35,634 nucleotides of DNA, from positions 1-35,634 of the forward strand of contig PRDI01000104.1 of assembly GCA_003345595.1 (NCBI GenBank), in the 5' to 3' direction. The notes under the pieces were generated by a model. The model saw only the letters and a program-made list of their open reading frames with translations, made no database searches and was not told the DNA's origin. Positions 4,829 through 9,952 of this stretch are shown in pieces. Positions within the stretch are counted from its first letter, which is position 1, and every line of letters starts with the position of its first letter. Made by a program: the position numbers and the translations under genes. Source of the DNA: Candidatus Thorarchaeota archaeon. GTDB taxonomy: Archaea; Asgardarchaeota; Thorarchaeia; Thorarchaeales; Thorarchaeaceae.

Positions 4829-6220
4829 CTACTTCTTCTTATCTTCGTCCTCTTCTTCCTCGCCAAGCCGCTTGCCAGGCTTGAGCCTTTTTGAGCTGTC
4901 GACAGAGAGTCTGCCCGGCGGAGGAGTAGACAGGTCATATCCTGGTTTGCCCTTCTTTATCCCCTCTGCCCTCTCGCTCGGCCACGCCTCACCGGGCGCT
5001 GGCACGTGTTCAGCTATGTCTTTGTCCAGCTTTCCTGGCTCCACAGGTACGCCAGACTCTTTGACTTTCTCCACAATTCTCTCAACTCTTTGCCTCCTCA
5101 GGTAGAACAATGAAGAGAAGATAGCTCCTAGCGGGAACGCAGTGAGCTTTGCTATATCCTTGAAGAGGTATGTCGCCGGAGCATTGGACACCCAATCGTT
5201 GTTGAACCATTGTCCAATGATAGAACCGGGTGTGGCCGAGATCACAATGATGCTGTCAACAAAGAAGAACCCGCTCGCCAAGAAGAATGTCAGAAGTGGA
5301 CCTAGGTCCCGGAGTCTGGAACGCGACTCCTCGACGGACTCGGTTACTGTTCGTCCAATACCACTCATTGCGTAGGCAAGGAAGAACAGAGTAATCGCGA
5401 TATCTGCAGCATTCATCTGCGGCGGTCCGGACCTCCGCATTACATTCACCAAGAAATAGCCCGCGTAGATTGAGATGAAAACAGTCAGTAATGCCACATT
5501 CAACGCCGCACCTCTTGCGGCATAGCGGAAGAATGTGAGTAATGACACCAAGGCAAACAACCCCATCATAAGGTACGCTACGATCAGACCTTGGAAGTTG
5601 CTCGCCAAGTTGGTCAAAGCGTTCGGGAAGATACCAACGATTGTCGTGCCAATCCCCAAGAAGTTATTTGGAATCAACCACAGTGCCGCCAGGGCTTCGC
5701 CTGCGATAAGTCCTATTCCAATCAGGAGAATGACGAAACTCCCAAGCCCGATGGCCACGCCACCTTTCTTGGGCTCGGCGATTGTTGCTATTCTCAGACT
5801 AGTCCTGGCAGAGAGATACGCCTGAAATGCTATCCAGCCCAGCCAACCGAAGACCGCGAAGAAGTACAATGCCGTACGGCCTAGACCTATTGATATGAAG
5901 ACCGCAATGGCAAAGGACACGGCCATCCAAGAGAGACCCTTCATTTCGGTGATCCGACCTCGGCCTCGGCTCGTTATCCACAGTCTGTCGAGCTTCAGAA
6001 GTGCAAGCAGAGTTCCCACGCCAAAGTAGATCGCACCAGTTGCACCTACGTAGACGAAGAAGTTCACGAGTGGTTCCTCAAGTGGAGTACCGACAGAATT
6101 GGTGATTATGTATGAAACAAAAAGCGCTAGGAATGTCGTTGCCACAAACACAGTTAGGTATGCGACATATCTCCGGGTTTTGAAGAAGACTTTCAGACCA
6201 TCGAACAGTGGAATTGGCAC
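4829..6220 (-). CDS. Polytopic membrane protein of unknown function with a charged, Pro-rich C-terminal tail
   Basis: 463-aa ORF with about 10 hydrophobic segments; GGAGG SD before the GTG start. Confidence 0.85.
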   Translation of the reverse strand: MPIPLFDGLKVFFKTRRYVAYLTVFVATTFLALFVSYIITNSVGTPLEEPLVNFFVYVGATGAIYFGVGTLLALLKLDRLWITSRGRGRITEMKGLSWMAVSFAIAVFISIGLGRTALYFFAVFGWLGWIAFQAYLSARTSLRIATIAEPKKGGVAIGLGSFVILLIGIGLIAGEALAALWLIPNNFLGIGTTIVGIFPNALTNLASNFQGLIVAYLMMGLFALVSLLTFFRYAARGAALNVALLTVFISIYAGYFLVNVMRRSGPPQMNAADIAITLFFLAYAMSGIGRTVTESVEESRSRLRDLGPLLTFFLASGFFFVDSIIVISATPGSIIGQWFNNDWVSNAPATYLFKDIAKLTAFPLGAIFSSLFYLRRQRVERIVEKVKESGVPVEPGKLDKDIAEHVPAPGEAWPSERAEGIKKGKPGYDLSTPPPGRLSVDSSKRLKPGKRLGEEEEDEDKKK

Positions 6221-6399: not shown

Positions 6400-7263
6400 T
6401 CATACCTCGTCGAACTCGTCTGCCTTTAGTGTCAGTCTACGGGGGTTAGCCAACAGACTGAGCTCGTACCTATGCTGAGTCGGATGGGATTTCCCTCCAG
6501 CCCACGCCTTCAGTCCTTTGTCCAGTCTTTCTCTTATTTCATGTCTGTATTTGAGGGCTATGGCAAAACACTGCAAGACCCTGCAGAACCATTCATTCTC
6601 CGCTAATACTTCATCATTGACCGTTACGGTGAAGTCGCCTCCTATGTCGCCGAACTTGCTGTCTACTTTGGCGACAGGAGTATCATAGGCTAGCATGCGC
6701 ACAGTGAAGTCGTCTCCCACGGAAACACGCGCTCCTTCTATCCTGAAAACCTCGAAGTTGCCTTGGGGGCCAACGATGTAAAATGAGTAGCTCTCAGTGG
6801 CAAGGGCGCTACGTTTCGCTTGCCGGATGTAAGTGACCACATCGCTCTCTTTTGTCAGGACAGAGAACACCAAATAGGGAGCCTCGGAGGCAAAGCTAAG
6901 AGCGCACTCTTCGGCGACCATCTCTTCGAGTGACGCTATCCAGTTTCCATTGTTGGAGAATAGCTTGCATACCAACCGTCGCGACATCTCGTTTTTCTCG
7001 TCGCGCCACTGACCATTACGGATTGTTATGAACCCAATCTTCTCTCTGGGCGGGAGCTCTTTGGTCCCTTTCTTGAGCTTCGACTCGTCAATCTTGCCGA
7101 TTATGTCCGAGTCTTGCGTGAACTGGCGGCTCTTCGAACGCCAGTCCTCGTCCTTCTTGATGCCTACCTTGTCTGCGTGTATCCCTGTTGCGTAGAGATC
7201 CTGTGAGAGCAACCTGTATACGATGTTTCCACCGCGTTTCAATTCCTTGCCCGACATAGCCAA
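6400..7263 (-). CDS. Hypothetical protein with probable LURP-one/tubby-C/scramblase-like beta-barrel
   Basis: FRIEG...DDFTV...VAKVDSKFGDIGGDFTVTV followed by a hydrophobic helix (VLQCFAIAL) resembles the LURP-one-related pattern. Confidence 0.6.
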   Translation of the reverse strand: MAMSGKELKRGGNIVYRLLSQDLYATGIHADKVGIKKDEDWRSKSRQFTQDSDIIGKIDESKLKKGTKELPPREKIGFITIRNGQWRDEKNEMSRRLVCKLFSNNGNWIASLEEMVAEECALSFASEAPYLVFSVLTKESDVVTYIRQAKRSALATESYSFYIVGPQGNFEVFRIEGARVSVGDDFTVRMLAYDTPVAKVDSKFGDIGGDFTVTVNDEVLAENEWFCRVLQCFAIALKYRHEIRERLDKGLKAWAGGKSHPTQHRYELSLLANPRRLTLKADEFDEV

Positions 7264-7345
7264 GCCTCGCCTTGCGTTGACGCCATATTGAGCAATTCCT
7301 CTTTATGATTCTATTGATGGCAGACGCAAAGCCAGTACAAGACAC

Positions 7346-7623
7346 CGGTGGCTATCCAGGATTCCTGGTGTACCGCTGAACACAAGGATGTTCATTTCGA
7401 GGAGAGCTGACACCTACGTGTCGCTCGGTAGAATACGAGCGACGCAAGCAACACTGACTATTCAAGGTCAGGAAGGAGGAGCCTGACTGGTCAGTGTGGG
7501 GAGCTGCTACCGCTGGAGTAGCGGCTTCCCAGCAGGTCGCCCACGGAGTAGAGAGCTGATCCTATTTTTAGTCGTGCAATGGGTACGTAAGCACCCTCTC
7601 GCTCGGGTATCCACCTCATGCCC
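7346..7623 (+). ncRNA. Putative structured non-coding RNA of unknown family (boundaries approximate)
   Basis: Six hairpins and a long-range closing stem lie in a 437-nt intergenic gap. All non-canonical pairs in the main stems are G-U on the + strand. Confidence 0.55.
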
Positions 7624-7700
7624 AAGGAAGGACCAAGATGGATAGAACATCAGAACCGAGATTCTATTCAGAAGACACCTATTCTGCCATGGAGTAGCTA

Positions 7701-8159
7701 TCAAAGATCCAACACTGCTGACGACTCGAAGTCTGAAACAACGACCATCTTGTCTACTCGGACCTTCATCACTGCACAGTCACTGGAATTGATGAACCCC
7801 CTGAGTCCGGGGTGCTTTCTCAAGAGAAGGCTCGCGCAACGGCGCTTTTCCTCGCCCACAGTCTCATCAGCAATGCCAATGACTGCTACCGTGGTTGCTC
7901 TCCTTATGTCTTCGCGCACATTCTTACGGGTGTCAACCAGAAGCGACACTCGTGGATTCGACGCCATGTTGCGATATTTCGTTCTGTTGCGCATTGTAGC
8001 AAAGATGAGACCCTTTAGGTCATCAGTCATCGCATAGCTCACCAAGCAGCAATACGGGTCGTCATCCTTCGAGGTAGCCAGAACAGCAGAGAGCTGAGAG
8101 CTTAGTACACGTCTGACCTTGCGCCGAACTTGGTTTTCTTCCATATGCCCCGCCGCCAT
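7701..8159 (-). CDS. Pyridoxamine 5'-phosphate oxidase-like (FMN-binding split barrel) protein
   Basis: AVLATS...PYCCLV...FATMRNRTKYRNMASNPRVSLLVD; start may be ATG 8144. Confidence 0.9.
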   Translation of the reverse strand: MAAGHMEENQVRRKVRRVLSSQLSAVLATSKDDDPYCCLVSYAMTDDLKGLIFATMRNRTKYRNMASNPRVSLLVDTRKNVREDIRRATTVAVIGIADETVGEEKRRCASLLLRKHPGLRGFINSSDCAVMKVRVDKMVVVSDFESSAVLDL

Positions 8160-8359: not shown

Positions 8360-9952
8360 GTGTCAGAATCACTGTCTATGGTTGTGCAGAAGCCATCGAG
8401 GGGCTTGAAGCAGACGGTTGAACACTTGCTGGCACGCAATGGCTGGCCTCTGATGTTCGTCACAGGAGTAGCTATCACTCTCCTGTCTGTTGCACACATC
8501 TCGGTGGTGGCCGCTGCCTGGGGCGTGTTCGGCTTTCCCTTTGACGATGCTTGGATACACCTGCAGTACGCCCGCACGATATTCGAGGGTTATCCCTGGG
8601 AGTACGCTCAGGGTATTCCAAGTACTGGAAGCTCAGCACCTCTTTGGTCGGTCCTCCTAGCGCCCATCTTTGTTCTTGGCTGCGCCCGAGACATGGTGAT
8701 AACTTCGGTACTATTCATCAGTGTGCTTCTGTATGCTATCGACACTTTCTTGGTCGGGTATCTAGTCAGAGAACATACAGGTCAATGGCTGGTCGGGGTT
8801 CTAGGACAAGCTGTCTTCGTTCTTGTACCGCGAAACGCAGGCTTGATGCTTTCAGGAATGGAAACTCCACTCGCAATGATGATGCTCCTGCTGACGCTCA
8901 TAATGCTGCCGAGGAAGGACACCAAATATGACCTGCTCCTAGGCTTAGTCGCGGGTCTCGCATACCTGAGTCGTCCAGAATTCGTGCTGATAGCTGCAGT
9001 CTGTCTGCCTCTCCGCGCTATCTGGCTGCTTGCCAAGGACAGGCTGGCCATAGGAAGACTAGTCTCAATAGGCGGCATGTTTGCGATTGCTGCCCTAGTG
9101 GTAGCCCCATGGGTCCTCCACTGCCTCAACACTACAGGACTGCCGCTGCCTGACTCATACTACTCCAAGCTGAGATGGGGGGTTACACAAACCGACATTA
9201 GCTACTGGGATTTCTTCTGGTACCAAGTATGGTTCCCTGCTGAACCCTACTTGGCGCTGGGCTTCGTTGGTGGCATGATACTCCTCCTCAAGCGTCGACC
9301 CTTCGAGCTGGTGATGGGTACCTCTCTGTTCATCCTTTACAGAATGACAATGCCAGGCATGTCATTGCTGTTCGCTGCCAGATACTTGGTGCCGCTCTTC
9401 GACCTTCTTGCCATCTCTTTCGTCGCCGGCGGATTCGTAGCCTTGGAGAAACTACTGAACAGAGTGAAGCTCCCTGGCTTCACTGCCACAGATAGGGCTT
9501 TCGTGGCGAGTATGGTAGTTTTGCTGCTCTTCACTCCATCGCTCAGCTCGTACATACTTCACGTAGACATTCACGCCAATCAGATCATGAACATAAATCA
9601 GATGCAGGTCACGCTGTCAGAATGGGTAAGAGACAACGTTCCTGAGGACGCAGTGATTGCCACATATGACGTGGGCGCACTCGGCTACTTCAGCAGATGC
9701 ACAGTCATCGACGTCTATGGCCTAGTCACCCCTGAAGTACTGCATAACCGCACGACCGTACCGGAACAGGCCCAGTTCCTCAAGGACATCCATTGCGACT
9801 ACATAATGTTCTATGAAGAGTGGTTCTGGTACTTGTGGAACGAGATTTCTCATATCGGAGGCAGTGTTCACAAGGTTGTTTCGGCTCACATAGAACCCAA
9901 TGTTGTATGCGGGACCAGCAACATGGCCGTTTACGCAGTGACCTGGAGTTAG
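8360..9952 (+). CDS. GT-C/ArnT-like membrane glycosyltransferase
   Basis: DDAWIHLQYAR after the first TM, TGSSAPLW, SGMETPL, SRPE, ARY and a soluble C-terminal domain with DVGALGY. Confidence 0.75.
   Translation: MSESLSMVVQKPSRGLKQTVEHLLARNGWPLMFVTGVAITLLSVAHISVVAAAWGVFGFPFDDAWIHLQYARTIFEGYPWEYAQGIPSTGSSAPLWSVLLAPIFVLGCARDMVITSVLFISVLLYAIDTFLVGYLVREHTGQWLVGVLGQAVFVLVPRNAGLMLSGMETPLAMMMLLLTLIMLPRKDTKYDLLLGLVAGLAYLSRPEFVLIAAVCLPLRAIWLLAKDRLAIGRLVSIGGMFAIAALVVAPWVLHCLNTTGLPLPDSYYSKLRWGVTQTDISYWDFFWYQVWFPAEPYLALGFVGGMILLLKRRPFELVMGTSLFILYRMTMPGMSLLFAARYLVPLFDLLAISFVAGGFVALEKLLNRVKLPGFTATDRAFVASMVVLLLFTPSLSSYILHVDIHANQIMNINQMQVTLSEWVRDNVPEDAVIATYDVGALGYFSRCTVIDVYGLVTPEVLHNRTTVPEQAQFLKDIHCDYIMFYEEWFWYLWNEISHIGGSVHKVVSAHIEPNVVCGTSNMAVYAVTWS

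What the first reader, a model, noticed from the sequence alone, without database searches (positions are those of the whole stretch)
7346..7623. Unannotated, highly structured intergenic RNA candidate
Seen: consecutive stems CGGTG..CCAGG/CCTGG..TACCG (7346-7375), TGAACA/TGTTCA (7377-7394), GTGTCGCTCG/CGAGCGACGC (7418-7445), ACACTGACTA/TGGTCAGTGT with inner GTCAGG/CCTGAC (7451-7497), a directly abutting 13-bp GGGGAGCTGCTAC/GTAGCGGCTTCCC (7498-7530) and GGGTAT/ATGCCC (7605-7623). CGAGGAGAG (7398-7406) can pair with CTCTC-g-CTCG (7596-7605) to close a multibranch domain. The wobble pairs are G-U only on the + strand, opposite to both flanking genes, and a TTTATG box lies at 7302. I could not find tRNA, RNase P, SRP or TPP-riboswitch consensus motifs. 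Inference: an independently transcribed ncRNA, or a structured non-autonomous mobile element.
Basis: partly seen in the sequence, partly recalled or inferred. Interest (0 to 1): 0.8.

Follow-up and report, generated by a model that had tools for sequence, protein, structure and literature searches.

The report
Clade-restricted folded small RNA, Thorarchaeota
The gap holds a real but smaller, roughly 200-base folded non-coding RNA gene on the plus strand; it is found only in a handful of closely related Thor-type Asgard archaea, is in no RNA catalogue, and its job is unknown.

Summary
The organism is an archaeon: RNase P, SRP and 16S RNAs lie elsewhere in the genome, and relatives are named Thorarchaeota. 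The 437-nt gap between a conserved 287-aa hypothetical gene (P0001, minus strand) and a PNPOx-like gene (minus strand) contains a conserved block, 7264-7538. Its right-hand 120 nt form three strong hairpins, H1, H2 and H3. The plus strand folds at -66.6 kcal/mol (z about -7.8) against -48.9 for the minus strand, and the same asymmetry holds in all five lineages found.

Across five sequence variants, 97.6% of plus-strand pair cells are standard pairs, against 83.9% for the mirrored minus-strand fold. Five pairs changed on both sides. Twelve pair columns carry G-U and two carry A-C.

There is no Rfam family, no conserved ORF and no second copy, so this is not a mobile element. The element occurs only in one sub-clade of one genus. 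Sister lineages carry a CxxCxxCC gene at that position instead.

The 'TTTATG box' is the TATA element of P0001.

Function is unknown. My best guess is a trans-acting sRNA that uses the near-invariant AAGGAGGAG loop. The scan already followed up the homologous locus in another genome (e1-5655599).

The parts
7298..7316 (-). BRE/TATA-type promoter element of P0001 (reads CAATAGAATCATAAAGAGG on the minus strand). It may also fire in the plus direction to drive the RNA.
   Evidence: TAGAATSATAAAGA sits at the same distance from the P0001 start codon in all close lineages, including L067 and L069, which lack the RNA. Other genera have AAGACTTATCA at the same distance. Bidirectional use is inferred only; Warman et al. 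2021 is cited in PMC10268837.
7334..7538 (+). Proposed ncRNA, about 205 nt. The 5' end is inferred and the 3' end is set by the conservation boundary.
   Evidence: Identity to G001 is 86% over 7264-7538 and about 52% beyond 7538. CM R1 matches 7338-7540 in five lineages at 198-250 bits. Homology to RNA-less lineages stops near 7330. The transcription start site was not measured.
7342..7387 (+). 5' domain with two mutually exclusive folds. Fold 1 is hairpin P1: 7342-7348/7365-7371 plus 7350/7364 and 7351/7363. Fold 2 is an H-type pseudoknot: S1 7346-7349/7372-7375 and S2 7364-7366/7385-7387 plus 7368-7371/7380-7383.
   Evidence: P1 is 100% paired; 7345/7368 and 7346/7367 go CG -> UG -> UA. The pseudoknot is 98.2% paired with three pairs changed on both sides. 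The choice is not resolved with five sequences, and in the window alone the fold is not significant (z -1.3).
7388..7419 (+). P2, a 4-bp helix (7388-7391/7416-7419). It encloses a 24-nt loop with invariant UCAUUUC and CUGAYACCUAC-like stretches and abuts H1.
   Evidence: Pair 7389/7418 is U-G, U-A or C-G in different lineages. The helix is weak, at only four pairs.
7420..7443 (+). H1, an 8-bp hairpin with a variable 8-nt loop.
   Evidence: 100% paired in five sequences. Two columns vary only through G-U, which would be A-C on the minus strand.
7451..7497 (+). H2, a 10-bp outer stem, a 6-nt 5' bulge (UUCAAG) and a 6-bp inner stem.
   Evidence: 90-94% paired. Pairs 7460/7488 (A-U / C-G) and 7469/7485 (C-G / U-A) changed on both sides.
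7473..7481 (+). Apical loop of H2, AAGGAGGAG. This is Shine-Dalgarno-like and is the candidate interaction site.
   Evidence: Identical in 4 of 5 lineages (AAGAAGGAG in L070). AGGAGG is complementary to CCUCCU at the 3' end of this genome's 16S rRNA. No start codon lies at a usable distance and no conserved ORF follows.
7498..7530 (+). H3, a 13-bp hairpin that directly abuts H2. The stem is invariant and the loop is variable.
   Evidence: All 13 pairs are unchanged in five lineages, including two G-U pairs that are A-C on the minus strand. All substitutions fall in the loop.
7539..7700 (.). Spacer that is not part of the conserved element. It contains a T5 run (7565-7569) that could be an archaeal terminator in this genome only.
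   Evidence: About 52% identity to G001. Fold z -0.7 / -1.4. The T-run is absent in the four relatives.

Best explanation
A single-copy gene for a structured small non-coding RNA of about 200 nt, read on the plus strand. It runs from roughly 7334 to about 7538. It is transcribed divergently from the conserved hypothetical gene P0001, and it converges on the PNPOx-like gene.

The RNA has a fast-evolving 5' domain whose pairing is maintained by compensatory changes in two alternative registers. It also has a very stable 3' domain of three hairpins (H1, H2, H3).

Shown:
- conservation well above the neighbouring spacer;
- strand-asymmetric folding and pairing;
- compensatory changes;
- no coding potential;
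- no catalogued family;
- restriction to one sub-clade of one Thorarchaeota genus.

Inferred:
- Transcription probably starts about 25-30 nt downstream of the quasi-symmetric TATA element it shares with P0001, used bidirectionally.
- The RNA most likely acts in trans (about 35-40% of my belief). It would do so like other archaeal intergenic sRNAs, by base pairing through a conserved exposed loop. Here that loop is the purine-rich AAGGAGGAG loop of H2, which would bind CCUCC-type pyrimidine tracts in mRNAs, other sRNAs or the 16S 3' tail.
- The long invariant helices would give stability or bind a protein.
For: - No Rfam match at gathering score, and only chance-level hits at relaxed thresholds.
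- Archaeal RNase P, SRP and 16S RNAs are elsewhere in the genome, and there is no tRNA in the window.
- Single copy.
- Syntenic homologs exist in G001 and in three further metagenomic lineages.
- Identity is 97% over 7440-7538 against about 52% just downstream.
- The 3' domain on the plus strand has MFE -57 to -67 kcal/mol, z -5.3 to -8.0, in all five lineages. The minus strand gives -36 to -49 kcal/mol, z -2.6 to -4.4.
- With a 50-pair structure, 97.6% of cells are paired, 5 pairs changed on both sides, and the covariation score is 0.142 (reached by 2 of 500 shuffles). Slid controls give 34-44% paired.
- The mirrored minus-strand structure is only 83.9% paired. Twelve pair columns use G-U on the plus strand and two use A-C.
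- There is no conserved reading frame. The best 32-codon frame loses its start in two lineages and is frameshifted in a third.
- The loop-based mode of action of archaeal sRNA154 is described in PMC5867862.
Against: - No transcript evidence of any kind is available.
- No plus-strand promoter of its own can be pointed to. The only TATA-like box is P0001's and is kept where the RNA is absent.
- No conserved oligo-T terminator exists.
- Only five closely related sequences are available, so the covariation statistics are weak and not phylogenetically independent.
- The 5' domain fold is ambiguous.
- Known archaeal and bacterial sRNAs usually display anti-SD loops, not SD-like ones. That would fit the minus strand.
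- Target pairing was not tested.
Confidence: 0.5

Rival explanations
1. Only the 3' domain (about 120 nt, 7418-7538) is the RNA, with its own promoter in the invariant AAGGATGTTCATTTC stretch (7384-7398). On this reading, 7338-7415 is regulatory DNA. This is the reading an earlier follow-up gave for the homologous locus in another genome.
For: Only the 3' domain is significantly folded in single sequences. GTTCATTTC, about 22-28 nt upstream of H1, is invariant in five lineages.
Against: TTCATTTC is a poor TATA box. Stepwise CG-UG-UA changes occur at 7345/7368 and 7346/7367, with further double changes at 7346/7375, 7349/7372, 7368/7383 and 7389/7418. All of these are wobble-compatible on the plus strand only and point to RNA-level selection upstream of 7418.
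Confidence: 0.17
2. The functional RNA is on the minus strand. It would be either an sRNA showing an anti-Shine-Dalgarno loop (CUCCUCCUU) that masks ribosome-binding sites, or a structured tail or leader of the PNPOx-P0001 transcripts.
For: The best, though weak, Rfam hit is the anti-SD sRNA family ar14 on the minus strand (19.6 bits, E 0.21). Anti-RBS loops are the documented mode of sRNA154 (PMC5867862). Both flanking genes are on the minus strand. A TAAAAATA box at 7562-7569 on the minus strand would place a start near 7539 in the window. The minus strand still folds with z -2.6 to -4.4.
Against: The mirrored structure is only 83.9% paired against 97.6%. Two invariant mismatches fall in H3 and up to three in H1. 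The minus-strand MFE is 17-25 kcal/mol weaker in every lineage. The TAAAAATA box is absent in all four relatives. P0001 has its own conserved promoter at 7298-7316, so the block is not its leader.
Confidence: 0.12
3. A cis-acting plus-strand transcript whose role is local. By running towards the convergent PNPOx-like gene, it would regulate that gene through transcriptional interference or 3'-end antisense pairing. The folded part would serve only to stabilise it.
For: The RNA and this PNPOx ortholog always occur together. The closest PNPOx outside the carrier clade is 61% identical. No conserved terminator separates them.
Against: Co-occurrence is explained by linkage. The 160-nt spacer is unconstrained. 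Strong conservation of helix sequence and of the H2 loop is not needed for interference.
Confidence: 0.08
4. A small protein gene or a decayed gene remnant, such as the CxxCxxCC gene that occupies this position in sister lineages.
For: A 32-codon frame (7388-7486) is open in the window and in G001. In P0004/P0005 lineages a CxxCxxCC gene lies here.
Against: The frame loses its ATG in L062 and L070 and is frameshifted in L071. There is no similarity to the CxxCxxCC gene or protein beyond the shared promoter. Substitutions follow helices, not codons.
Confidence: 0.03

Closest known systems
Archaeal intergenic trans-encoded sRNAs, e.g. Methanosarcina mazei sRNA154 / sRNA162 (review PMC5867862)
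   Same: An intergenic, independently encoded, stably folded RNA of 100-250 nt. It is restricted to a narrow taxon and has conserved hairpin loops that are the presumed interaction sites.
   Different: There is no sequence or structural homology. The conserved loop here is SD-like (purine-rich) rather than anti-RBS. No expression data or targets are known, and the carrier clade is much narrower.
Alphaproteobacterial ar14 (Rfam RF02344), three hairpins with CUCCUCCC loops
   Same: Three consecutive hairpins. On the minus strand, one loop reads CUCCUCCUU.
   Different: The score is 19.6 bits against a gathering score of 58.8. The match is on the wrong strand according to the pairing data, only one of three loops carries the motif, and the family is bacterial.
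Orphan structured archaeal ncRNAs of unknown function (e.g. Hgc RNAs of Methanocaldococcus; from my own knowledge)
   Same: GC-rich, strongly folded, intergenic, and with no assigned function.
   Different: There is no homology, and this RNA is confined to a few near relatives.
CsrB/RsmZ-type protein sponges (GGA in hairpin loops; from my own knowledge)
   Same: GGA motifs sit in exposed positions. ACACAAGGAUGU (7380-7391) resembles the CsrA SELEX consensus, and the H2 loop has three GGA.
   Different: No CsrA gene was found in the genome (best 12.7 bits against a cut-off of 27; genome 83% complete). The hairpin that would present the first GGA is not conserved.

Membership tests
Any Rfam 15 family | Covariance-model score at or above the family's gathering threshold | tested here: not met
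   There were 0 matches in the whole window at gathering score. The best relaxed hits were ar14 at 19.6/58.8 bits and 2dG-II at 13.6/60 bits.
tRNA / RNase P RNA / SRP RNA | Recognised by ARAGORN or by the archaeal covariance models | tested here: not met
   No tRNA is in the window. RNase P RNA is on contig C20 (156.6 bits) and SRP RNA on C34 (75.8 bits).
MITE / non-autonomous mobile element | Multiple dispersed copies and variable insertion sites | tested here: not met
   There is one copy in G000 by BLAST and by CM. All five carriers share the same synteny. Nothing was found in viral contigs.
Archaeal C/D-box sRNA | C box RUGAUGA and D box CUGA at the ends of a 50-70 nt RNA, forming a K-turn | tested here: not met
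   By inspection, CUGA occurs but there is no conserved UGAUGA. The only TGATGG (7315) lies in the promoter and is not kept in relatives.
Archaeal H/ACA sRNA | Hairpin with a two-sided pseudouridylation pocket, a K-turn or K-loop, and ACA directly 3' of the lower stem | tested here: not met
   H2 has a one-sided bulge only, H1 and H3 have no internal loop, and no ACA follows H2 or H3.
Cis-regulatory leader / riboswitch | Lies in the 5' UTR of, and on the same strand as, a downstream gene | tested here: not met
   On the plus strand, the strand the pairing data favour, there is no downstream co-oriented gene before the convergent PNPOx gene. On the minus strand, P0001 has its own promoter between the element and its start codon.
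Trans-acting archaeal sRNA | Discrete transcript with its own start and end | not testable with these tools
   No transcriptome data could be queried. The promoter and terminator are inferred only.
Trans-acting archaeal sRNA | Conserved accessible segment complementary to target mRNAs | not tested
   Conserved loop AAGGAGGAG and invariant single-stranded stretches were identified. A local search for CTCCTCCTT found nothing beyond chance. No genome-wide target prediction was run.

The most novel reading that the evidence does not exclude
The RNA is a two-state riboregulator. Its 5' domain toggles between a hairpin (7342-7371) and an H-type pseudoknot (7346-7349/7372-7375 with 7364-7371/7380-7387). 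Each fold is kept by its own compensatory changes. The switch would control an SD-mimicking loop that titrates anti-SD sequences, such as the 16S rRNA 3' tail or the C/U-rich loops of other Thorarchaeota sRNAs. That would make it an RNA decoy for the translation-initiation machinery of an Asgard archaeon.
Probability: 0.07. Interest if true: 0.7.

Novelty: new member of a known kind. Interest (0 to 1): 0.35.

Why it matters
Asgard archaea have almost no described regulatory RNAs, and none are catalogued for Thorarchaeota. This adds a well-delimited, strand-assigned candidate with a testable secondary structure.

It also appears to be evolutionarily young. It sits exactly at a rearrangement breakpoint next to a conserved promoter, so it may show how a new structured RNA gene arises from divergent transcription.

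Its very narrow distribution and unknown function limit the wider impact. The same locus in a sister genome was already reported by this scan.

Tried and rejected
- **Rfam:** gathering and relaxed thresholds gave nothing.
- **Copy number and mobile element:** single copy and none in viral contigs.
- **Pattern scans:** a 19-mer from the H2 loop, scanned against metagenome and genome collections, returned only G001's record plus chance hits. It missed the L062-type variants because their stem differs.
- **CM searches:**
  - R1 next to 20 P0001 orthologs from other genera and across 86 family genomes found no further homologs.
  - The five-sequence R2 model in 40 relatives gave only 13-16-bit chance hits.
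- **Pseudogene of the CxxCxxCC gene found at this position in sister lineages:** no similarity beyond the promoter.
- **Small ORFs:** the frames at 7388-7486 and at 7494/7496 onward are not conserved.
- **CsrA-sponge idea:** no CsrA gene was found.
- **Local target:** no complement of the H2 loop occurs in the flanking mRNAs.
the multibranch closing stem and two of the other stems are rejected by comparison.
- **K-turn in H2:** considered by eye; the required tandem G-A pairs are absent.

Full report
**Setting**

The window comes from an archaeal metagenome-assembled genome (2.73 Mb, 129 contigs, 83% complete).
- Archaeal RNase P RNA (156.6 bits), SRP RNA (75.8 bits) and 16S rRNA lie on other contigs.
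- Relatives of the neighbouring protein are named Candidatus Thorarchaeota in public records.

The finding sits in the 437-nt gap 7264-7700.
- On one side is a 287-aa hypothetical gene, P0001 (6400-7263, minus strand). It has no Pfam or NCBIfam match but is a single-copy gene in most of the family.
- On the other side is a PNPOx-like flavoprotein gene (7701-8159, minus strand; PF01243).

The whole gap folds better than dinucleotide shuffles on both strands (z -3.9 and -3.4). Splitting the gap shows where the signal lies:

| Segment | Plus strand | Minus strand |
|---|---|---|
| 7416-7535 | -66.6 kcal/mol (shuffles -38.8 +/- 3.6), z -7.75 | -48.9 kcal/mol, z -4.28 |
| 7338-7415 | z -1.3 | z +0.1 |
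| 7541-7700 | z -0.7 | z -1.4 |

So the three hairpins H1, H2 and H3 are far beyond chance. The rest is not, judged from this sequence alone.

**Relatives**

- The element is single-copy in its genome.
- BLAST and a covariance model (R1) found it in only one of the other 85 genomes of the family, the same-genus genome G001. It is syntenic there.
- It is not next to the P0001 orthologs of 18 other genomes.
- Following P0001's nearest protein cluster into metagenome assemblies gave three more distinct variants, L062, L070 and L071. All lie between PNPOx and P0001.
- A five-sequence model (R2) found nothing further in 40 relatives.
- Lineages whose P0001 is 76-77% identical (L067, L068, L069) lack the element. 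They carry a divergent CxxCxxCC (PF03692) gene at that position.
- There is no detectable homology between that gene and the element.

The element is therefore young and confined to one sub-clade of one genus.

**Conservation**

Against G001, identity is 86% over 7264-7538 and 97% over 7440-7538. It then drops abruptly to about 52%. That is higher than in the flanking coding DNA, so the block is under selection. No reading frame is conserved. The best candidate, 32 codons from 7388, loses its ATG in two lineages and is frameshifted in a third.

**Structure and strand**

I tested a 50-pair structure on the five-sequence alignment A8. It consists of P1, P2, H1, H2 outer and inner stems, and H3.
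- Plus strand:
  - 97.6% of cells are standard pairs.
  - Five pairs changed on both sides.
  - The covariation score is 0.142, reached by 2 of 500 shuffles.
  - Slid controls pair at 34-44%.
- Minus strand: the mirror-image structure is only 83.9% paired. It has two invariant mismatches in H3 and up to three in H1.
- Twelve pair columns use G-U on the plus strand and two use A-C.
- In all five lineages the plus strand of the 3' domain folds 17-25 kcal/mol more stably than the minus strand.

Clear compensations include:
- 7460/7488: A-U in the window, A.G in G001 and L071, C-G in L062 and L070.
- 7469/7485: C-G to U-A.
- 7389/7418: U-G, U-A, C-G.
- 7345/7368 and 7346/7367: CG -> UG -> UA, stepwise.

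I conclude that selection acts on a plus-strand RNA.

**What does not hold**

- CCAGG/CCTGG, TGAACA/TGTTCA and the 9-bp 'closing' stem 7398-7406/7596-7605 are broken in the relatives.
- 7539-7623 is unconstrained.
- The 5' domain is ambiguous. A hairpin (P1; 100% paired, two double changes) competes with an H-type pseudoknot.
- The two folds are mutually exclusive and about equally supported. Five related sequences cannot decide between them, and a genuine two-state domain is possible.

**Promoter and ends**

The 'TTTATG box' is, on the other strand, TAGAATCATAAAGA.
- This motif sits about 47-60 nt upstream of the P0001 start in all close lineages, including those without the RNA.
- Other genera have AAGACTTATCA at the same distance.

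It is therefore P0001's TATA element. Homology with RNA-less lineages ends near 7330, right where a plus-strand transcript started from this element would begin. Divergent initiation from quasi-symmetric promoter elements is documented for bacteria and archaea (Warman et al. 2021, cited in PMC10268837). Bidirectional use is thus plausible but not shown. A T5 run at 7565-7569 could terminate transcription in this genome, but it is absent in the relatives. The simple sigma-70 and terminator scan is not informative for an archaeon.

**Function**

Nothing is shown about function. These features are constrained beyond pairing:
- the complete H3 stem (26 nt without a change, while its loop varies);
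- the H2 apical loop AAGGAGGAG (one change in one lineage);
- the bulge UUCAAG;
- the linker GCAAGCA;
- two single-stranded stretches in the P2 loop.

The H2 loop is a perfect Shine-Dalgarno sequence, complementary to CCUCCU at the 16S 3' end of this genome. However, no usable start codon or conserved ORF follows it.

By analogy with archaeal intergenic sRNAs such as M. mazei sRNA154, which act through conserved hairpin loops (PMC5867862), I consider trans-acting base pairing through this loop the most likely mode, at about 35-40%. A protein-binding scaffold is next. I also considered a CsrA-type sponge, because ACACAAGGAUGU resembles the CsrA consensus. No CsrA gene was found, and the presenting hairpin is not conserved.

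**Comparison, novelty and verdict**

The element belongs to no Rfam family. It fails the defining features of tRNA, RNase P, SRP, C/D-box, H/ACA, riboswitch leaders and MITEs. It is best described as a new, clade-restricted member of the known kind 'archaeal intergenic structured sRNA'.

An earlier follow-up in this scan (e1-5655599) examined the homologous locus in another genome. It called it a roughly 120-nt three-hairpin RNA with its own promoter. My data agree on the three hairpins. They add evidence from P1, the pseudoknot and P2 that the transcript probably includes about 80 further nucleotides upstream.

Interest is moderate to low. The RNA is real and uncatalogued, but it is narrowly distributed, of unknown function, and already seen by the scan.

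Noticed in passing
window 6400-7263 (-), P0001: A roughly 285-aa protein family with no Pfam or NCBIfam match. It is single-copy in most Thorarchaeota and is detectable at 26-37% identity in other families of the phylum (31 of 41 genomes; 140 database proteins at E <= 1e-40). Its function is unknown.
   Followed up: partly
window 7298-7316 and loci L034, L037, L039, L041, L045, L047, L048: The P0001 promoter is recognisable across genera. It is a TATA-like AAGACTTATCA / TAGAATSATAAAGA box about 45-60 nt upstream of the start codon. This is useful as a Thorarchaeota promoter example.
   Followed up: partly
window ~7330; loci L067 2361-3000, L069 1-366: A rearrangement breakpoint lies immediately beside the P0001 promoter. 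Sister lineages have a divergent CxxCxxCC (PF03692) gene, followed in L067 by MFS and DUF7064 genes. In the carrier clade the same position holds the RNA, a PNPOx-like gene and a 530-aa hypothetical gene.
   Followed up: partly
window 7264-7337 (-): An imperfect inverted repeat (CTTGCGTTGACGCCAT / ATGGCAGACGCAAAG) brackets the P0001 TATA box. The minus strand folds with z -3.3 in the window. It is only partly kept in G001 and may be a regulator-binding site.
   Followed up: no
window 4829-6220 (-) and 8360-9952 (+): Two long ORFs (463 aa and 530 aa) have no Pfam or NCBIfam match. Both are conserved next to this locus in the related contigs.
   Followed up: no
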